From Licmophora abbreviata (taxonomy: Eukaryota), in the NCBI GenBank assembly GCA_900291995.1, contig OLMU01000222.1, forward strand, positions 1-33,231: a DNA stretch of 33,231 nucleotides, written 5' to 3'. Below the pieces are notes generated by a model. That model saw nothing but the letters and a program-made list of their open reading frames with translations, was not told the DNA's origin and did not search any database. Position numbers and translations under genes: made by a program. Below, one piece after another: positions 5,454-29,740 of the stretch. The stretch's first letter is position 1; the number at the start of each line of letters is the position of its first letter.

Positions 5454-6231
5454 AGTGTTTTTTCTATAGTGTGGTGAAGTTCGCTGCGCCTTTGAATACG
5501 GCGGCAGCGGAACCAATCGTCTGTTGAGGTAAGGTGGGACGCGATCGCAACATCGAAAGGTAAGAAAATATCGCCAATAATGCAGTCGGAAGTGAATAGC
5601 CCGAGCAGCCGACTCTCACAGCCCAGCTCGTCCTCTAGAGTTCTCTTGACTCGTCGTCGATGACTCTGGGAGAGCTTCTGCTGGACTGGTTGCCTGAAGT
5701 ATTTCATACGCGCAGTGCAGAGGACGGAACCATCGAACCAACGTCGTGTGATACTATGATACGACTTGTACTGTGGAAGGCGTTCAGGTTCCGCTGTCGA
5801 CCAGTTAAGCGCTCCTTCGACTGTGTCTATGCCATGCTGAGCAGTCTTTATACGTCGCCATTGTCACGAGAAAACATCCGTGCAGCGACAGGCTATCATC
5901 GACGGGAAAAGACAAGTACACGAGAGGTTCGCACCAGCCGCCGTGCACGTCGCCATTGTCAAGAGATAGCATTAAGACAATAGTACGAAGTAGTAGACTA
6001 GGTTAGCCACTTGTGGACTGCATTGACGTAGCAGTACCCCTGAGAAGGTGTGCACTTACTCGAGCTCTACAAAAAATACCTTAACCCGTGGGTGCTTGCT
6101 TGCTGGGAAGTCAGCGTCTCGGTGCGTATACCGATCGAATGGTTCGAGTTCCCGTCGAGGTGTGGCTGGGAGTCTGTGGCACAGTCCGTGGCGCGCCTTT
6201 TCGATCCGATGATGCTAATTCTAAATCCAAA

Positions 6232-8030
6232 ATGACCGACATGACGACGGCTCGCATCAGTGCCCTTGTCGCCGTGGTCTGGCTCTTCAGCCTGCCTCTG
6301 GTGGTCTCAGAGGGAGCGCCAACGCTGACATGTTCAATTCCAGAGGAGCAGGAGCGAGAGCTGGATCCAAATCTGAAAGAAATGAAGGTGAATCTCGACG
6401 GAGAAGACTTTTCGTTCCTTGCGTACGTACAGCCAGATGTGGCGACATTCTACAGAAACAAGGACAATCCGCCCGCTTCCACGGCCGTCACTCCCATGTT
6501 CAATGGCCACGCTGCTAAATTCATCAATCTGAGCGACAAACCTCTGAATCTGTTTTGGGAACCGAACGAAGGCGGCGATCCTTCTTTGATGAGACTGATG
6601 CCTGCGTTTCATGGAAGTGGGACAGCTAGCTTTCCAGGGCACCGCTTCTTCTTTTCTGACCCAGAAACTCCATCCCAAAAGCTGATTCTCTTCATCGTTA
6701 AAGCCTATCCGCAGAGTCTGTACGCATACGACCCCTATGAAGTCCAGGGCGACCTTGAGGCGACCAAAGCGAATCTGGGGAAATTGACCCCTGACCAACA
6801 GGAGAAGTACAGACTTCTTAAACGATCCTTGCAGTTTAGCGACGAGTACATGAAAGTCACAGGACGACCGTACCTTGTCAATTTTCCTCGACCGCGCCCC
6901 ACGCATTTCATGTGGCCTGCAGACTACTTCGGTCAAGAGCATTGGGTGACGACGAGGGAGACGCACTTTACCACCATGCCGTTGTCTGATGATTCGAAGG
7001 AGAGGGTTCAAGAAGTTGGCTCCAAACGAGTTCTGTCGGACAACGACCCTCGTCTACTTGCCAAGCACCGTACCTCGGAGTCAGAAATTATGAACATGAC
7101 ACTGAAAGTCCTATCGGTGGCACCTCGTGTCCTCGAAATCCCTGACTTTCTATCGTCGGTCGAAGTGGATCATATTCTTGAACTCGCTGCTGGCGAAGAC
7201 ATGAAACTCTCGTCGACCGGACAGGACGCGCCTGGTACTCGATCAAATATGACCGAAACCGAAAAGAGAGCTCGTCGCACGCGAACATCCTTCAACTCGT
7301 GGGTTGAGCGTGACCGCACCCCGGTGATCGATGCCATATACCGTCGAGCGGCGGACTTGTTGCGCGTCGACGAGGCGTTGCTGCGATACCGAGGAGCTGA
7401 CGAGTACCCCGACCTTGGGACGAAGAAGTCAATTGCAGAAGCACTCCAATTGGTCCATTACGATTATTCACAGGAGTACACAGCGTAAGTGTTCTGAGTC
7501 CGTCAGTCGAATCGTCTCTTCTGAATCCTGTTTTAACGATGTGCCGTTCTCGTTCTTGCAGGCACCATGACTTCGGTTATTCCCCGGTTGATGCCACGTT
7601 TCAGTCAGCGAGATATGTCACGCTCCTCTTCTATCTGAATGAAGGAATGGTTGGGGGATCTACAACGTTCCCCCGGTGGGTGAACGCCGAGTCGTTTGAA
7701 GAGCTGAGGGTCCAGCCTGAGATCGGAAAGGTATGTTGCGAGTCAGATGAACGTGGGCCCGGTCGCGATGTCGGTACGTCTGGTCGTGATGCTGTTAGCT
7801 GACTCATTCGTTCACGCCATTACAGGCTGTCCTGTTCTACTCCCAGCTTCCAGACGGAAACATGGACGACTTCTCCCAACATGCCGCAAAGTAAGTAGAC
7901 TACTCTCGCACAAATGATTGCCGTTGTACCATCATTTTCTAACACAAACATTGGACTCGACCAAAGGCCTGTTTGGGAAGGTGAAAAATTTCTGATTAAT
8001 CTCTGGATGCACGATCCAGTGTATGAATGA
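6232..8030 (+). CDS. Secretory-pathway prolyl 4-hydroxylase (2OG-Fe(II) dioxygenase) with N-terminal VHL-beta-like domain; exons 6232-7484, 7562-7730, 7826-7890, 7967-8030
   Basis: Signal peptide (ISALVAVVWLFSLPLVVSEG). P4H motifs LSVAPRVLEIPDFLS, RTRTS, EALQLVHY, HHD (HxD), TLLFYLNEGMVGGSTTFP, AVLFYS...HAA.PV..GEK...NLW. Three GT-AG introns give an intact frame. Confidence 0.88.
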
Positions 8031-13715: not shown

Positions 13716-16275
13716 CTACCCTCCAGTATCCACAACAGTGCTGGCGACAGCCTCGGCGGCACTCTTTGCAAGTTCCCCATTGTTCAGGACGGGAGGTAAA
13801 TGCGTCAAATGTTCCGGGTCGACAACGTCACACGAGTGTGACCAGTGGTAGGTAGTGATAAAGACCAGCATATGCATGGCGCAAACGTAAAAGAAGAGCG
13901 CAGTACGCATCTCTTTGCTTCCCAGGACCGTCCTCGCAACTATGAACACAATACGTTCCATAGGAGACATCTCGCTCATCTTGCGCTGTCGTTCCGTGCG
14001 ACTAAACTGGCGGAACGGATCGACGGACGCCTCGTAGCGTTGCTCCAACGCTTCCAGGTCCAGGTCACGGTCTGACATGCTGCCGCTTCGGTTGTAGGCT
14101 CCCGCCCGAGATGCCCCACCCGACGAGCTGTTAAAGTTCTGTAGGTAGCGCACCTTCTCATAAAGTTTCGTGTTGTCGGACTTGAGCGATTCTGCTGCCT
14201 GTACTTGGACTTGCAGCTCTCTCTTGAAGCTGTCACGCTCAGCCTCTAGCGCTTCGTTGCGAGCGCGAAGCCGATCGCGCTGAGCCATTACGATGGTAGC
14301 CACCGAGTGGTCATCATCGGCTTTTTCGGCGGCGGAAACACTAGTGTTGGGCATCGCCTTGCTGGAAGGCGGCGGCGTGGAGGCGTCCGGATCGAGAATA
14401 TGCTGTAGCGTGGCGGGGCTCTCGCCGTCAACAGGGACAGGGGTTTTTAAGGGCGAGGTCGCCTTCTGACTGGCGGGAGCAGCGATTGCTTTTTCCAGAT
14501 CCACTTCGAGAGAGGCAACAAGCGTTTCTGAGTCTACTCTCGCTTTCTGCGCGTTAGAAAGCTCCCGCCTCAACTCGTCGCATTCCTTGGCGTGATCCAT
14601 TTTCTGGTTTCGCTCTCGGACGAGCTCGGATTCCACACGACGGAGCTTGGCAACGAGAACAGACTCAAAGTCCTTCTCTTCTTCGTCTTCCGCGACACCA
14701 GTCATCTCCGGGTCGCGTTCTGCATCGACATCGTCCGCATTGTACTCTAGACGTTTGAGGATGCGGAGCTCACGCTTCATGTTGTCAACAAACGCGTGCG
14801 AAGGTGCAGCGGCAAGCTGAGACTCCAGAGTCATCACGCTCGACGACAGAGCGTTCCGTTCTTGTTCGAGAGAATCAATCGTAGAGTGGAACGCGCGGCG
14901 CTCTTCTGAGTGCGTGTCCTCCTTGATTCGGAGCTCTTCACGGAGCGCGTTGGCGGTGTGCGACAATTCGCTGACCTGCAAGTATACGAACCATCGTTGT
15001 TGGAAGCGTGTCTATCAAGATACGTCCAAAGTCTCCGTGCCAAGCTCTGTACTTACCTCAGCTTCATAGGCCTTGCGCTCGAGAAGTAAATCGGACATTG
15101 CCAGGCTTCCCGACGGCGGCGGGGTCGGGCCTGTGCGAGCGCTGTCCGTCCCCCTCCAACGCTGCAACACGAAGGCGGAGCTCATCGCGCTCACGCGTCG
15201 CCTCGTGCAGAGTTTCACGAAGACGCTCCGAATCGTCAATGAGGATGCGCCGCTGGGCCTCCCATGCTGCTTCGCGCTCTCCCGCACCCTCGTCTGCTTC
15301 GAGCAAGTGGACCTGAGTTGCTTCGCGCCCAGCCCGTTCAGCCTTAAGCTGGAGCTCAAGAGTCTGCACACGTCGCTCCATGACTGCCTCGCGTTCCAGA
15401 GCTTCAGAGGCGCGACGTCCTTCCGTTTCAGCTAGATCCTGCTGTGCCTTTTCAAGCTGCTGTTTCATAGCTGTTTCTCCGTCGCGCTGCAGTTCAGAGA
15501 TCTTGCCTTCAAGCTTTCTGATCGTAATGTCCTGGTTCTTGAGCGATCGGAACTCCACCTCGTATTCGGCGACTTCCCCGCGTAGTTGGATGAGCTCTTC
15601 ATGCTCAGCCTTGGACAGAGCTCCGGATGCTGATTCTTCCATTTTGGATGCGCGGAGCTGTGCCATATCGTCTTCGTGGCGACTCGCCAGCTGTGCCAAT
15701 TCGTCTTCATAACGACTTGCCTGCTGCGCCGCGTTGCTCTCGATACTCTGCATTTCGCGATTCACTCCCTCCAAGGTACCAAACAACTGCGTAAGCTGAG
15801 CCTGCTGAGAGTCGATATGCTCCATAGCAGCTCGAAGAATATTAGCAGGTTCGGGGACGTCCAACAGACTGTGGTGAATGGAGGAGCATGCAGTCTCGGA
15901 TGACTTGCAGCGGCGTGTCAGATTATCGATTTCTTCCTGGTAAGCCTTGACTGTTTTGCGGCACTCTTTGGCTAATCCATCCATCGTTTTCACCGCAACA
16001 GTAGAATGATCTGACGACGAGAGATTTTCAGCGAGTCCAGCAGACGCTTGTTCCATGCTCTTGACGCTTTTCTTGAATTGCTTGGTCGTCTCTCCTAGCT
16101 GCTTCCGGGCGGTCAGCGAATGCTCCTTCTGCTCTTTAGCTTGAATCGCTGTCTTCTCCAACTGCGACAAGCGAGAGTCCCAGTCAAACCCAAGCCATGA
16201 TTGAAATGCGAGCTGCAGAGACGACATCAGCGTCTCTTGGCTGCCTCCAGGACTTGCGTCGATTCTGGCTGCCAT
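13716..16275 (-). CDS. CASP: CASP/COY1-like Golgi coiled-coil membrane protein; exons 16275-15057 (apparent +1 frameshift near C5 run 15150-15154), 14975-13716
   Basis: CUX1/CASP N-terminus (RKQLGETTKQFKK, VKAYQEEIDNLTRR, EFRSLKNQDITIRKLE) and CASP C-terminal domain (IVMAQRDRLRARNEALE, LKSDNTKLYEKVRYLQ, YEASVDPFRQF), ending in a TM segment FFYVCAMHMLVF. Intron 15056-14976 is GTAAGT..CAG. Confidence 0.88.
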
Positions 16276-16798
16276 GGTCACAGCGAGATGATACCGCAAC
16301 AAAATGAAATGACAGCGTGTTGTCGCGCCGGCGGAACTCTCGTGACTGATCGCGCGAGCTCTTCAAATTGGATTTGGATCGCGAGGTCGTTAAGCCGACT
16401 TTCAACTTTCAGAAGCCTGAAGTCGCATCGTGATACCGCGGGCCGCAAGCTACGATTCGAACTAGTCTCTCATTGGAACTCATCGTGGACTAGGCAGAAG
16501 TGGAACCTTAGACACCTCGTGCTATCATCATTGAGAGACAAGGGAGCTTGTTGGCTTGTAGGCTAGCTGTACCGGTGGCTTGCTACTACTTGGAGTAGTA
16601 GCTACTCGGAGTAGCTACGAGCGCTATACGCATCGGCTTTCATGCTGCTCTGCCTTGACGAGATTACGAACGCGAGGGAGAAGGATACGCGTTCTCACAA
16701 CTGAAAAGACTACTCGCGATCCCTATTATTTCTCTCACTATTTATTATCTTGCTTTAGGTCGTCCGGGATCTCCGCAATCATACAGCCTGGGTCGACG

Positions 16799-16803
16799 AA
16801 AAA
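16799..16803 (-). terminator. RNA polymerase III terminator (T5) of the tRNA-Gly gene
   Basis: TTTTT on the minus strand, 5 nt after the discriminator base. Confidence 0.7.
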
Positions 16804-16808
16804 GGGAG

Positions 16809-16972
16809 TGCGCTGCCCGGGAATCGAACCCGGGTCTGCGAAACGATGAAGGGAAGAAGTTAGGGAATAAGCTGTGAGAGGAGTTTCACGATTCCGTTCT
16901 TTCGCGCGAAACACCCTGTTTGTCTTACCCCCTGAATGGGAATCAGGAATCTTGCCTCTAGACGAACAGCGC
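16809..16972 (-). tRNA. tRNA-Gly (anticodon CCC); exon 1 16972-16929, 93-nt intron 16928-16836, exon 2 16835-16809
   Basis: Spliced sequence GCGCTGT TC GTCT AGAGGCA AGAT T CCTGA TTCCCAT TCAGG GG|AC CCGGG TTCGATT CCCGG GCAGCGC A (71 nt). Acceptor, D, anticodon and T stems all pair, and B-box GGTTCGATTCC is present. Confidence 0.93.
16836..16928 (-). other. Spliceosomal-type (U2, GT-AG) intron inside the tRNA variable loop
   Basis: Starts GTAAGA. Branch motif CCTAAC has its A at 16860, 24 nt from the 3' end, followed by the pyrimidine tract TTCTTCCCTTCATCGTTTCG and a terminal CAG. Size and signals match the mRNA introns in this window. Confidence 0.85.
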
Positions 16973-17341
16973 TTGTTTCCGTTCCGTACGCGTTGTATGA
17001 AAAAATACTAGTATATAAACTGTGATCTATACTTCAAAGCAGCTTATATGTATCCGGTTGCACGGAAAACACTCTCTTCTTCTTCTAAGCTATCGACTTG
17101 CACCCTTCTTCCTTAGCCTAGAGAGAGTATAAGGCGGTCTACCTTACAAAAGAAGCTAGAATAGATAGGCATATTTCGAGTGGCGGTCAGTCAGTCGTTG
17201 TCGTGTCTGTCATCGCACGTATGCGTATCTTTGGGGGCGCCAAATCTTTCGATTTCAATTTCGATCTCTCTCATGACCTAACCGATAACCGATGAATCAT
17301 CACAGTCACCGAAAGGCAGAGAAGGAACAAAAGAAACGCCG

Positions 17342-18383
17342 ATGAAGTTGTTCTGTTTGCCGGTGTCTATGCTTGCATTCGCGCGAGTGGCTGCTTCCTT
17401 CTCGACAAAAGGATCTGCTCCGTTTCTTCGAAAGACGTCTCTCGCCATGGCCGAGCGCTTCACGATTCCTGACCAACCAGCCCGTTTTGCTAGAGCCAAG
17501 AAGGAAAACAACGAACGCTATCTTGATATCACGACCGTCTACGACCCTTCATTCCTTAAGGGCAAGCGCGTTGCAGTGACGGGAGCTAACCGAGGCATTG
17601 GACTGGCTCTTGCGACAGAGTTGGCGGAGCAGGGTGCCAAAATCGTTGCGCTATGTCGATCCAGCTCGGACGAGCTCGAAGCTCTAAAGCCTGACGAGAT
17701 GATTCTTGGTATCGACGTTAGGGACGACGAAAAGTGCGAAGCGATCAAAGACCAAATTAAGGGTGGTCCCATTGATATCGTAAGTCTGTAAATATTGAAT
17801 ATGTTGGCAGTATTGTGTGCGGTCGCTCCGAAGATACTAACCTTTTGTTCCGATCACTTTTGTTCATATTATGCTCATACTCGCACAGCTCATCAACAAC
17901 GCAGGGTACTTTTATGAGCCTTTGGAGACTCTCGACTCGCTGAACTTTCCAGAACAAATCAAAACGATCGATATCTGTGCTTGTGGACCTCTCCGTGTTT
18001 CGGCATCGCTTGTGCATGGAGGACTCCTCCAGGAGGGTTCCAAAATCATCATGATTACGTCGCAAGGCGGCTCGGTGGAGTGGCGCACAACGCAGAATCC
18101 CACCGGTCATGATTATGGTCACCATATGTCGAAAGCGGCAGCCAACATGATGTCGGTGTTGTTGGCGCAGGAGTTGAAGAGCAAGGGTATCGCCGTCGGC
18201 ATCTTTCACCCTGGCTTCAACAAGACGGGCATGACGGCCAAATACAAGGATATTTGGGAAGTGGAAGGAGCTGTTGATCCTTCTGTAGGCGCCAAGAGGA
18301 TCATGTACGAAGCAGGAAAACTGAGCATGGAGACGTCTGGTGAGTTTATCAACTGTGAGGACGGATTGGAAATCCCTTGGTAG
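17342..18383 (+). CDS. Short-chain dehydrogenase/reductase (CsgA/C-factor-like classical SDR), predicted plastid-targeted; exons 17342-17779, 17889-18383
   Basis: TGANRGIG, DI|LINNAG, ITSQGGS, YGHHMSKAAANM (catalytic Tyr position reads H in HxxxK), IFHPGFNKTGM. The N-terminal signal ends AAS-F (ASAFAP-like). Confidence 0.88.
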
Positions 18384-27738: not shown

Positions 27739-28342
27739 GCTCACTGCTACTCGTAGTTGTACAAGGTGCGGTCGATCGATTGAGAAGGTCCACTATAGAT
27801 CTACTGGACTGCGATGGCGCTGGATCGCGGACGCTCGGACGGTTCCTTTGCATCGGCGGCAGAAACTGGATGCCATGCGCCATCACATTGAGCATACTAT
27901 ACCATCGGAACGAACCACTGTCGCGCGTACCAAAGCTACATACGAGGCGCCGAACGCCTTTTTTGGCGGGAAAAAGGAAGATCGTACCAGAATAGTCTAC
28001 GTAGAGTTCTACGTAATTTGAAACGGCGCATGCAAAGAGACGACCCCGATTGCTGGACGTTTCCTTTGTTACAAGTGATCACACAAGTGCTTCCTCCACC
28101 GTCATGGGGCGCCATGATGCCATGAACAATGAATTGAGAACGACGAAAAGTGTTTGACACGCCATGATCGCAGGTTCGTAGGTGAGTCGAGTGGGTCGTA
28201 GTCACAACTTGACGCATCGAATGGGCGCACCCAGACTCAGCCGGGTTCCTGATTCCTCATCAATGTACATAGATTCACCTAGGAACTGACGTAGAAATCA
28301 GAGCATTGCATCGGCTGTGTGTAAAAAAAAGCAAAAGTGACC

Positions 28343-29740
28343 ATGGCGAGCGCCGATGCTTCGGGCGACGCCGCCGGTGCCACCGCGCAAGATCCCAGCA
28401 GCTCGATCCTTCTCAATCAGCCTATAGTACTGGATAATGGAACGTCGTGTATCAAAGCTGGATTCGCAGGAGGCTCCAAGCCGAAAGTATGTCTGCGTTG
28501 TCCGATCTTCTCGTGCGTACACTATCATACGGCTGATGTCTTGTTTCTCACCCTGACTTGACTCTCCCTCCTACTTTCTCTAAAGGTTGTCGTTGGCACG
28601 AAAATTGGAAGAGCCAAGCACATGCGCATGATGCCAGGTGGAGCGCTCGATCAGGATCAAGATCGGTCAGGACCGTCGTCGATCTTTGTGGGACGAAAGC
28701 TTGACGACCACCGAGGCGCCTTCCTGCTGGAGTACCCAATGGACCATGGCCAAGTCGTCGACGGATCATGGGATGCCATGGAACGAATCTGGGAGGTATG
28801 AAAGTCCGAGACAAAGTTTGTTAGGTGTCCGTCGCTCTCGCTGCTCTAACTGCTGCTCCCGTGATCTCTGCCACCCTAGCACGTCTACTCAAAGTCCAAT
28901 CTAAACGCTCGAATGGAGGAGCATCCTGCTTTGCTGACAGAGGCCCCCCTCAGTGCTAGATACAATCGCGACAAGACGGCCGAAGTGTTCTTTGAGACCT
29001 TTCGGACTCCCGCTCTCTTCTTCGCGCCTCCAGCAGTGCTCAGCTTGTATGCTTCTGGTCGCACGACAGGCGTCGTTTTGGATGTCGGCGAAGGCGTCAC
29101 ACACTGTGTCCCGGTCTACGAGGGTTACGCGCTGCCTCATTCTGTGACGCGTAGTGATGTTGCAGGACGAGACGTGACGCAGCACTTGCAGCTCCAGCTT
29201 CGTCGGTCTGGGTTAAACTTTACAACCACAGCTGAGGCGGATCTTGTCAAGACTATGAAGGAGGAAGTCTGCTTCGTCGCCCCAGGTGGATCTACGGACG
29301 AAACGGTTGAGAAAGATTCCAAAACGCAGTACCAACTCCCAGATGGTGAAGCAGTCACTGTTTCGTCGGAACGCTACCGTGCTCCTGAATTGTTGTTCAA
29401 CCCGTCGCTTATTGGGTCCGAGGAACTCGGAGCGGCGGATGTTCTTGTCAATTCCATCTTCAAGAGCGACCTCGATTTGCGATCGACCCTCTTCTCTCAG
29501 ATCGTTTTGGCAGGAGGGTCAACGTTGCTACCCGGCTTTGGCGACCGAATGCTCTATGAGGTGCGATCTCGTTCGCCGGCGCACACACGTATACGAATCT
29601 CGGCACCTCCGGAACGAATAAACTCAACCTACGTAGGAGGTTCGATTCTGGCCAGTCTCGCGACGTTCAAGTCCATGTGGGTGACAAAGGCCGAATACGA
29701 AGAGCGTGGCAGCGGCGCCTTGCACCGCAATGAACTCTAA
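28343..29740 (+). CDS. ARP1: Actin-related protein 1 (centractin, dynactin subunit); exons 28343-28486, 28586-28795, 28880-29740
   Basis: NQPIVLDNGTSCIKAGFAG, GRAKHMRMMPGGAL, EEHPALLTEAPL, SLYASGRTTGVVLDVGEGVTH, IVLAGGSTLLPGFGDR, RIRISAPPER. These features are Arp1-like rather than conventional actin. Confidence 0.88.

What the first reader, a model, noticed from the sequence alone, without database searches (positions are those of the whole stretch)
16809..16972. tRNA-Gly(CCC) gene interrupted by a spliceosomal-type intron in its variable loop
Seen in sequence: a complete tRNA-Gly(CCC) is split after the second variable-loop nucleotide (about position 45/46) by 93 nt: GTAAGACAAAC...TTATTCCCTAACTTCTTCCCTTCATCGTTTCGCAG. 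It has a consensus 5' splice site, a CTAAC branch point 24 nt from the end, a pyrimidine tract and CAG, matching the 76-109 nt mRNA introns of neighbouring genes. Excision exactly at GT/AG restores a 71-nt cloverleaf with a 4-nt variable loop (GGAC), intact stems, a B-box and a downstream T5 terminator, so it does not look decayed. Established knowledge: nuclear tRNA introns normally sit at 37/38 and are cut by the TSEN endonuclease, and non-canonical ones use bulge-helix-bulge motifs, which I do not see here. Spliceosomal introns are known in some Pol III RNAs, such as fission-yeast U6 snRNA. Inference: this pre-tRNA is matured by the spliceosome, which I do not know to be described. Standard tRNA finders could miss the gene and report the GGG decoder as absent.
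Basis: partly seen in the sequence, partly recalled or inferred. Interest (0 to 1): 0.95.

Follow-up and report, generated by a model that had tools for sequence, protein, structure and literature searches.

The report
tRNA gene split by mRNA-type intron
A glycine tRNA gene of a diatom-like alga is interrupted in its variable loop by a 93-base insert that looks exactly like this organism's ordinary mRNA introns, which would be a new way to mature a tRNA if it is spliced, but no RNA data were available to show that it is.

Summary
Window 16809-16972 (minus strand) is a complete tRNA-Gly(CCC). It is split between standard positions 45 and 46 by 93 nt (16928-16836) bounded by GT...AG. Rfam's tRNA model matches end to end (33.1 bits, cut-off 29) only in a sensitive local scan. 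ARAGORN and the default Rfam scan miss it.

The insert is intron-like well beyond chance. A splice-signal model trained on 13 ORF-joining introns of the same window (76-109 nt) gives it 23.6 bits. That is above all 13 real introns and above all 11,627 GT..AG decoys. There is no bulge-helix-bulge motif at the junctions, no second copy in the window, and no target-site duplication or inverted ends.

The gene is otherwise intact. It has both internal promoter boxes, an AT-rich stretch upstream as described for Phaeodactylum tRNA genes, a T5 terminator, and no T4 run inside the insert.

The mechanism is not shown. No RNA run, no whole genome and no orthologous locus could be reached. I put spliceosomal excision giving a working tRNA at about 0.45, and a recently disabled gene at about 0.40. 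Seven literature searches found no spliceosomal intron described in a tRNA gene. The nearest precedents are fungal U6 and rRNA genes.

The parts
16999..17019 (-). AT-rich upstream stretch (about -47 to -27 from the tRNA 5' end), including a TATATA-like run and a T6 run
   Evidence: Read. Positions -40..-30 are 9 of 11 A/T. A passage of PMC3531208 reports an AT-rich region at -30 to -40 upstream of Phaeodactylum tricornutum tRNA genes.
16929..16972 (-). tRNA-Gly(CCC) exon 1: acceptor 5' strand, D arm (A-box region about 16965-16955), anticodon arm (anticodon CCC at 16940-16938), first two variable-loop bases
   Evidence: Rfam RF00005 alignment, model positions 1-44. ARAGORN cloverleaf after excision in a script.
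16836..16928 (-). 93-nt U2-type (GT-AG) intron-like insert between standard tRNA positions 45 and 46
   Evidence: Shown as one insertion in the Rfam alignment. Length, GC and signals fall within the 13 window introns. Composite splice score is 23.6 bits, above 13 of 13 leave-one-out real introns and above all 11,627 decoys. It has no T4+ run.
16923..16928 (-). 5' splice site GTAAGA, preceded by exon G
   Evidence: GTAAG is the commonest donor among the window's introns (6 of 13). Donor score 9.5 bits.
16859..16865 (-). Branch-site-like CCCTAAC, branch A at 16860, 24 nt before the 3' splice site
   Evidence: 5.7 bits. CTAAC, CTGAC, TTGAC or TTAAC lie 12-48 nt from the 3' end in 8 of the 13 window introns.
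16836..16858 (-). Pyrimidine tract (17 of 20 pyrimidines) and 3' splice site CAG
   Evidence: Py20 = 0.85. Acceptor score 8.4 bits.
16809..16835 (-). tRNA exon 2: last two variable-loop bases, T arm with B box GGTTCGATTCC (16830-16820), acceptor 3' strand, discriminator A
   Evidence: Rfam alignment, model positions 45-71. B-box pattern hit at 16830.
16799..16803 (-). T5 run, 5 nt after the discriminator base: Pol III terminator-like
   Evidence: Read. That short T runs end Pol III transcription is stated in a passage of PMC3531208.

Best explanation
This is a nuclear tRNA-Gly(CCC) gene of a diatom-like alga. At some point it acquired a genuine U2-type (GT-AG) spliceosomal intron in its variable loop.

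Most likely mechanism:
1. The gene is still transcribed, probably by RNA polymerase III from its intact A and B boxes, through an insert that has no T4 stop, to the T5 run.
2. The spliceosome recognises GTAAGA, the CCCTAAC branch site and the pyrimidine tract plus CAG, and removes the 93 nt as a lariat.
3. RNase P, RNase Z and CCA addition then finish a normal 71-nt tRNA that reads GGG codons.

Shown here: the split tRNA, the intron-type signals, the absence of a BHB motif, and the intact promoter and terminator elements.
Inferred: transcription, which polymerase acts, excision by the spliceosome, and function of the product. A variant in which a Pol II transcript carries the tRNA is included in this explanation, at about one third of its weight.
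For: Identity and intactness of the tRNA:
- Full-length Rfam match, 33.1 bits against a cut-off of 29, with no non-standard pairs flagged.
- ARAGORN calls tRNA-Gly(ccc) once the insert is removed.
- A perfect B-box match and a T5 run 5 nt downstream.
- An AT-rich stretch at -40..-30, as described for P. tricornutum tRNA genes (PMC3531208 passage).

The insert is intron-like:
- It is 93 nt against 76-109 nt (median 91) for 13 ORF-joining introns of the window. GC is 0.47 against 0.39-0.54. Its GTAAG donor is shared with 6 of the 13.
- Its composite donor + branch + acceptor score is 23.6 bits. Leave-one-out scores of the 13 real introns run 4.2-22.0 (median 17.4). None of 11,627 GT..AG decoys of 70-115 nt in the window reaches it. 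The two best decoys flank long ORFs and are probably real introns themselves.

Compatibility with Pol III: there is no T4+ run in the insert. This is weak, because 9 of 13 mRNA introns also lack one.

The alternative excision route looks closed: there is no BHB at the junctions.

A decoder is needed: GGG makes up 57 of 336 glycine codons in nine ORF segments.

A 5'UTR reading is unlikely: the tRNA-to-CASP-ATG spacer is 533 nt and holds 8 ATGs.

The intron-bearing form also stands in a Logan contig of a marine metagenome run. X1 record 5 covers 16752-16954 with 3 mismatches and no gaps. The run may be the source sample.

Precedents: spliceosomal introns are removed from the Pol III U6 RNA of S. 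pombe, and they also occur in U1, U2, U5 and rRNA genes (PMC5855946 passages).
Against: - No RNA evidence of any kind: no spliced junction, lariat or precursor.
- It is one locus in one 33-kb window. No orthologue or paralogue was seen, so conservation of position and signals is untested.
- Whether an intronless tRNA-Gly(CCC) copy exists elsewhere is unknown, because no genome is held.
- Both splice sites lie 2 nt from tRNA helices (anticodon stem and T stem), which would have to open for the spliceosome.
- By general knowledge, tRNA-Gly(UCC) can read GGG. Loss of this gene could therefore be tolerated.
- Intact exons and strong signals are equally expected shortly after any insertion.
- The exact GT/AG restoration is not very specific (112 of 169 shifted cuts still give a tRNA call).
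- The splice model rests on only 13 introns. They were picked with a GT[AG]NG donor filter and by ORF joining, not from RNA data.
Confidence: 0.45

Rival explanations
1. A recently disabled tRNA gene. An intron-type sequence, either an introner-like mobile element or an intron copied in by reverse splicing or repair, landed in a dispensable tRNA-Gly(CCC) gene. The transcript, if any, is not spliced productively. GGG is read by another tRNA-Gly. The locus looks intact only because too little time has passed. It may persist as a TFIIIC-binding site between two divergent genes.
For: - This is a single locus with no conservation evidence.
- Introners occur in diatom relatives and in Thalassiosira oceanica (PMC12130899 passages).
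- A class of short introners under 200 nt without transposon features is described in algae (PMC11146597 passage).
- The flanks of the related X1 contig differ by only 3 of 203 nt. Over such a time span, about one change or fewer is expected in 71 nt of exon.
- No case of a spliceosomal tRNA intron was found in print.
Against: - No second copy of the 93 nt exists in the window. The best other match is 12 nt, and none of the 13 other introns resembles it.
- By reading, there are no inverted ends and no target-site duplication beyond a 1-nt ambiguity.
- Every functional element of the gene is intact.
- The insert avoids both promoter boxes and has no T4 run.
- The intron is present in two sequence variants, so it is not a private new insertion, provided X1 is not the same clone.
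Confidence: 0.4
2. The insert is removed by a protein enzyme route, not by the spliceosome. This would be the tRNA splicing endonuclease plus ligase, as for non-canonical tRNA introns of red algae, nucleomorphs and archaea, or another endonuclease. On this reading the GT-AG look is incidental.
For: - Non-canonical tRNA introns exist in some algae (C. merolae, Chondrus crispus, G. theta nucleomorph; PMC13578239 passages).
- An archaeal variable-loop intron is on record (Thermofilum pendens; seen only as a reference title in PMC3978253).
- A BHB-like arrangement can be drawn with cuts after precursor positions 45 and 125: a 4-bp centre plus 4 bp on one side.
Against: - At the cuts that restore the tRNA, the central 4-bp helix has only 2 of 4 pairs. 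It has 3 of 4 pairs for the equivalent cut one base to the left. The flanking helices are poor.
- The 45/125 alternative would leave 12 intron bases in the tRNA. It is one of 11 of 170 cut pairs with a perfect 4-bp centre, which is not far above chance for a G-run facing a pyrimidine tract.
- By established knowledge, eukaryotic TSEN measures from the mature domain to position 37/38, not to 45/46.
- The full set of top-scoring splice signals would be an unexplained coincidence.
Confidence: 0.05
3. An assembly or chimera artefact: the 93 nt do not lie inside the tRNA gene in the living genome.
For: The window comes from an unnamed assembly, and only low-depth metagenome contigs match it.
Against: An independently built Logan contig (X1 record 5, 203 nt) runs from 16752 to 16954 without gaps. 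It bridges the 3' junction with 84 and 119 letters. It reaches 26 letters past the 5' junction, which is under the tool's 31-letter rule for bridging. An artefact would not place a complete intron exactly at GT/AG inside a loop.
Confidence: 0.03

Closest known systems
mRNA-type (spliceosomal) introns in U6 snRNA genes of Schizosaccharomyces pombe and other fungi (PMC5855946 passages)
   Same: A small, structured, Pol III-type non-coding RNA gene is interrupted by a short intron with canonical 5' splice site, branch site and 3' splice site. In S. pombe the spliceosome removes it. Origin by reverse splicing plus reverse transcription has been proposed.
   Different: U6 sits in the spliceosome's active site, which explains why it is a target. 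A tRNA does not. No tRNA case is listed among the non-coding RNAs with such introns in that review (U6, U1, U2, U5, rRNA). Splicing is unproven here.
Non-canonical tRNA introns removed by the splicing endonuclease: Cyanidioschyzon merolae, Chondrus crispus, Guillardia theta nucleomorph (PMC13578239 passages); variable-loop intron of Thermofilum pendens (reference title only)
   Same: A tRNA gene is interrupted away from position 37/38. Standard finders miss such genes.
   Different: Those introns are short and carry bulge-helix-bulge motifs at the junctions. This one is 93 nt, has no BHB at its junctions, and carries GT-AG, branch and pyrimidine signals.
Introners and spliceosome-mediated intron transposition (PMC12130899; PMC11146597; passages only)
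   Same: A newly gained, short, non-coding GT-AG intron in a marine alga. Diatom relatives are reported to have introners.
   Different: Introners are recognised as multi-copy families in Pol II genes. No second copy was found in 33 kb, there is no TSD or TIR, and the host gene is a tRNA.
Engineered yeast pre-tRNA carrying the actin pre-mRNA intron
   Same: As recalled, a Pol III tRNA precursor with an mRNA-type intron was spliced by the pre-mRNA machinery. That would show the route is chemically and cellularly possible.
   Different: That was an artificial construct with the intron at the anticodon-loop position in budding yeast. This locus is natural, in a diatom-like alga, and the intron is in the variable loop.

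Membership tests
tRNA (Rfam RF00005), isotype Gly, anticodon CCC | Full cloverleaf match above the curated score | tested here: met
   33.1 bits against a gathering score of 29, model positions 1-71 of 71, no non-standard pair flagged. ARAGORN calls tRNA-Gly(ccc) after excision in a script.
tRNA (Rfam RF00005), isotype Gly, anticodon CCC | Expressed, processed, aminoacylated product | not testable with these tools
   No RNA holder listed. No raw reads.
U2-type spliceosomal intron | GT...AG ends with a donor like the host's own introns | tested here: met
   GTAAGA...CAG. Donor 9.5 bits and acceptor 8.4 bits under a model built from 13 window introns.
U2-type spliceosomal intron | Branch site at the usual distance, followed by a pyrimidine tract | tested here: met
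   CCCTAAC with its A 24 nt from the 3' end. 17 of 20 pyrimidines before CAG.
U2-type spliceosomal intron | Length and composition within the host's intron distribution | tested here: met
   93 nt against 76-109. GC 0.47 against 0.39-0.54.
U2-type spliceosomal intron | Excised as a lariat by the spliceosome in vivo | not testable with these tools
   No RNA data.
Endonuclease-type (BHB) tRNA intron | Two 3-nt bulges around a 4-bp helix placing both cut sites, or the canonical 37/38 position | tested here: not met
   The position is 45/46. The central helix has 2 of 4 pairs, or 3 of 4 for the cut shifted by one base. The flanking helices are weak.
Introner / mobile intron family | Several near-identical copies in the genome | tested here: inconclusive
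   No other copy in the 33-kb window; the longest other match is 12 nt. The whole genome is not held.
Introner / mobile intron family | Terminal inverted repeats or a target-site duplication | tested here: not met
   Reading of the junctions shows only a 1-nt G ambiguity and no inverted ends.
Pol III type-2 (tRNA) gene | Internal A and B boxes, a downstream T run, and no internal T4+ stop | tested here: met
   B box exact at 16830-16820. D-arm region intact. T5 at 16803-16799. No T4+ run in the insert. The insert stretches the A-to-B box spacing by 93 nt; whether TFIIIC tolerates this was not tested.
Group I / group II self-splicing intron | Match to a ribozyme family | tested here: not met
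   The sensitive Rfam scan of 16700-17100 lists only the tRNA and a chance mascRNA-like T-arm hit. By general knowledge, 93 nt is too short.

The most novel reading that the evidence does not exclude
A natural pre-tRNA is matured by the spliceosome. This would be the first tRNA gene with a working mRNA-type intron, and it would cross the supposed wall between spliceosomal and tRNA introns. Such genes are invisible to tRNA finders, so they may recur in marine algae. An earlier, unchecked note of this scan reports a similar tRNA-Ala in an Ostreococcus-like alga. If so, some 'missing' decoders in annotated genomes are hidden split genes.
Probability: 0.4. Interest if true: 0.9.

Novelty: new variant of a known kind. 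Interest (0 to 1): 0.72.

Why it matters
Recent texts treat the two intron classes as unrelated. Spliceosomal introns are said to belong to mRNAs and other Pol II transcripts, and tRNA introns are said to be cut by a protein endonuclease (PMC12530127 introduction passage; PMC13149111 section 8.1 passage).

A working GT-AG intron in a tRNA would do four things:
- extend spliceosome substrates to the most abundant Pol III RNA class;
- give a natural test case for splicing without Pol II coupling, and for intron gain by reverse splicing;
- tie the level of a decoder tRNA to spliceosome activity;
- show that tRNA gene sets of algae are under-counted by standard tools.

If the gene is instead dead, it is still a clean snapshot of an intron-type sequence landing outside a Pol II gene.

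Tried and rejected
- Whole genome: none is held. Intronless copies, other split tRNAs and other copies of the insert could not be sought.
- RNA evidence: no RNA holder was listed among the 7 runs found.
- Reads laid from 4 DNA runs: no joints were reported, so no intronless form was seen. Cover is thin and consists of contigs only.
- Related loci, by typed pattern from the anticodon arm:
  - Metagenome scan with a 19-base pattern: 7 loci, 0 of 7 a tRNA.
  - The same pattern in genome contigs: 5 bacterial loci, 0 of 5 a tRNA.
  - The same pattern in viral contigs: 0 hits.
  - A 21-base exon-intron junction pattern in viral contigs: 0 hits.
- Earlier notes of this scan: nothing by place, relatives or sequence.
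- The 10-bp helix between the 5' splice-site region and the intron just upstream of the branch site, seen in the MFE fold: rejected as evidence. 20% of shuffled interiors pair at least as well, and the 13 mRNA introns show no such trend.
- Whole-precursor folding: z-score -2.15, with 5 of 200 shuffles as good. Not informative on mechanism.
- BHB motif: not present at the true junctions.
- tRNA embedded in the CASP 5'UTR: disfavoured by a 533-nt spacer with 8 ATGs, but not excluded.
- snoRNA or other RNA family inside the insert: nothing in the sensitive Rfam scan.
- First protein search for taxonomy ('longer' lengths): returned only fused actins and was uninformative.
- Verifying the recalled 1990 yeast paper: the look-up failed, and it is not cited in the three reviews whose text I searched for the author name.

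Full report
**What is there.**
On the minus strand, 16972-16809 reads as a tRNA-Gly with anticodon CCC, broken once.
- Exon 1 (16972-16929, 44 nt) holds the acceptor 5' strand, the D arm, the anticodon arm and the first two variable-loop bases.
- Exon 2 (16835-16809, 27 nt) holds the last two variable-loop bases, the T arm, the acceptor 3' strand and discriminator A.
- Between them lie 93 nt (16928-16836) that begin GTAAGA and end TTTCGCAG.

Rfam's tRNA model matches the whole stretch (model positions 1-71 of 71, 33.1 bits against a gathering score of 29, E 2.8e-5). It places the 93 nt as a single insertion after model position 44 and flags no non-standard pair.

Routine scans do not see the gene. 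ARAGORN reports 0 genes, and still 0 with its intron option. The default Rfam scan of the window reports 0 matches.

When a script removes 16928-16836 by coordinates, ARAGORN calls tRNA-Gly(ccc). The GT/AG cut is simply the one that gives the usual 4-nt variable loop.

**Where it lies.**
The window is nuclear DNA of a diatom-like alga.
- A Vps18-like ORF finds 191 proteins at E <= 1e-20. Of the 120 listed, the 8 that carry an organism name are all diatoms (Cylindrotheca, Nitzschia, Mayamaea, Pseudo-nitzschia, Amphora, Seminavis, a Bacillariaceae MAG) at 46-50% identity. Unnamed metagenome proteins reach 60-67%.
- The tRNA sits in a 1,066-nt spacer between two divergent genes. One is a CASP/CUX1-like gene on the same strand downstream (ATG at 16275). 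The other is a short-chain dehydrogenase on the plus strand (ATG at 17342; Pfam domain continuous across its 109-nt intron).
- The 533 nt between the tRNA and the CASP start codon hold 8 ATGs. The tRNA is therefore unlikely to be part of that gene's 5'UTR.

**Is the insert an intron of this organism's kind?**
I collected 13 introns of the window that join long open frames. Several join halves of one Pfam domain. None has RNA support.

| Feature | 13 window introns | tRNA insert |
|---|---|---|
| Length | 76-109 nt, median 91 | 93 nt |
| GC | 0.39-0.54 | 0.47 |
| Donor | GTAAG 6, GTATG 3, GTGAG 2, GTACG 1, GTAGG 1 | GTAAG |
| Acceptor | CAG 7, TAG 4, AAG 2 | CAG |
| Branch-like motif | CTAAC, CTGAC, TTGAC or TTAAC, 12-48 nt from the end, in 8 | CCCTAAC, A 24 nt from the end |
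| Pyrimidines in the last 20 nt before the acceptor | 0.50-0.90 | 17 of 20 |

A simple donor + branch + acceptor weight-matrix model trained on the 13 gives the insert 23.6 bits. Leave-one-out scores of the 13 real introns run from 4.2 to 22.0 (median 17.4). None of 11,627 other GT..AG pairs of 70-115 nt in the window reaches 23.6. The two best decoys adjoin long ORFs and are probably unlisted real introns. The model is small, and its training set was picked with a GT[AG]NG donor filter. Even so, the conclusion that the insert carries a full, strong set of this organism's splice signals is safe.

**What it is not.**
- *Not a BHB intron.* At the cuts that restore the tRNA, the central helix of a bulge-helix-bulge motif would have 2 of 4 pairs. 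It would have 3 of 4 for the equivalent cut one base to the left, and the flanking helices are poor. Eleven of 170 nearby cut pairs allow a perfect 4-bp centre. The best of these (after precursor positions 45 and 125) would leave 12 intron bases in the tRNA, and it reflects a G-run facing a pyrimidine tract.
- *No other RNA family.* The sensitive Rfam scan finds nothing else in the stretch.
- *Not visibly a mobile family.* The insert has no other copy in the window, the longest other match being 12 nt. It has no inverted ends and no target-site duplication beyond a 1-nt ambiguity.
- *The 10-bp helix is not evidence.* The helix between the 5' splice-site region and the intron, seen in the MFE fold, is matched by 20% of shuffled interiors.
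- *Probably not an artefact.* A Logan contig of a marine metagenome run (X1 record 5, 203 nt) covers 16752-16954 with 3 mismatches and no gap. It bridges the 3' junction and reaches 26 letters beyond the 5' junction. One of its differences (16850) lies in the pyrimidine tract. That run may be the window's own source, so it is weak as independent support.

**Is the gene otherwise alive?**
- The B box is exact.
- The D-arm/A-box region and all stems are intact.
- A T5 run follows 5 nt after the discriminator base.
- The insert contains no T4+ run, though 9 of 13 mRNA introns also lack one.
- Positions -40..-30 upstream are 9 of 11 A/T. A passage of the PlantRNA paper reports an AT-rich region at -30 to -40 before P. 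tricornutum tRNA genes (PMC3531208).
- GGG supplies 57 of 336 glycine codons in nine ORF segments, so a GGG reader is needed. By general knowledge, tRNA-Gly(UCC) could serve.

**How it most likely works.**
I think the most likely account (about 0.45) is that the gene is transcribed and the spliceosome removes the insert. Pol III is the probable polymerase; a Pol II host transcript is not excluded. End processing then yields a normal tRNA.

Reasons for this account:
- every element of the gene is intact;
- the endonuclease route appears closed;
- spliceosomal introns are known to be removed from other non-Pol II RNAs. S. pombe U6 is spliced, many fungal U6 genes carry such introns, and they also occur in U1, U2, U5 and rRNA genes (PMC5855946 passages);
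- I also recall, but could not retrieve, a 1990 EMBO J paper in which a yeast pre-tRNA engineered to carry the actin intron was spliced by the pre-mRNA machinery.

The main rival (about 0.40) is a recently disabled gene.
- Introners exist in diatom relatives (PMC12130899 passages), and a class of short introners without transposon features is described in algae (PMC11146597 passage).
- The decoder may be dispensable.
- Both intact exons and strong signals are expected soon after any insertion.

Nothing I could run separates these two accounts.

**Comparisons that failed.**
- No whole genome is held.
- No RNA run holds the locus.
- No joints were seen in four DNA runs.
- A 19-base anticodon-arm pattern found 7 metagenome and 5 prokaryote-genome loci, and 0 of these 12 holds a tRNA. 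Viral contigs gave 0 hits.
- The scan's own notes hold nothing on this genome or on look-alike stretches.
- They do hold one unchecked note of an Ostreococcus-like tRNA-Ala gene split by an mRNA-type intron (e1-4091646). I did not test it.

**Is it known?**
Seven full-text searches found no paper describing a spliceosomal intron in a tRNA gene. The phrase hits were all 'non-spliceosomal' (checked in one preprint).

I read passages only of the following:
- A 2025 paper calls the three eukaryotic intron types unrelated and assigns spliceosomal introns to Pol II transcripts (PMC12530127).
- A 2026 review of tRNA genes in photosynthetic organisms does not contain the word stem 'spliceosom' (PMC13578239).

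The library lacks most subscription journals, and I saw no supplements, so a report elsewhere cannot be excluded.

**Verdict.**
The DNA observation is real and far from chance. The insert is a spliceosomal-type intron by every sequence test available. The gene around it looks functional. Whether it is spliced is open. If it is, this is a new variant of a known kind (mRNA-type introns in non-coding RNA genes), extended to tRNA.

Noticed in passing
window 16818-16851: In run X5 a 1,584-nt contig (record 29, depth 6.5) aligns with 3 mismatches across the 3' splice junction: the last 16 nt of the insert plus the first 18 nt of exon 2. It then diverges on both sides, and 8 nt later the contig ends. 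A chance match of 13 or more of 16 bases beyond the universal T arm is unlikely, so a related split locus or a tRNA-derived repeat may exist in another genome of that sample.
   Followed up: no
window 28487-28585 and 11783-11704: Two of the 13 ORF-joining introns (Arp1-like intron 1 and the second ABC-transporter intron) end in AAG, not CAG or TAG. This suggests that the organism tolerates AAG acceptors.
   Followed up: partly
window 7731-7825 (+), 5560-5638 (+): The two best-scoring 'decoy' GT..AG pairs (23.5 and 22.2 bits) adjoin open frames of 110 and 114 codons. They are probably real introns missing from my set.
   Followed up: partly
window 28340-29740 (+): An actin-related gene with two introns. 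Its closest longer hits include Arp1/centractin proteins at 53-61% identity, so it appears to be a dynactin-type Arp1 in a diatom-like genome.
   Followed up: no
window 16587-16627: In the spacer between the tRNA and the CASP gene, the X1 contig lacks 9 nt at 16587 and differs at 16609 and 16627. These sites lie around a short inverted repeat near 16600-16616. The polymorphism fits non-coding DNA.
   Followed up: no
window 16276-17341: The tRNA gene lies between two divergently transcribed protein genes (CASP-like and a short-chain dehydrogenase). This is a position where, by general knowledge, tRNA genes and TFIIIC sites can act as boundary elements. That could keep the B box under selection even if the tRNA were dead.
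   Followed up: no
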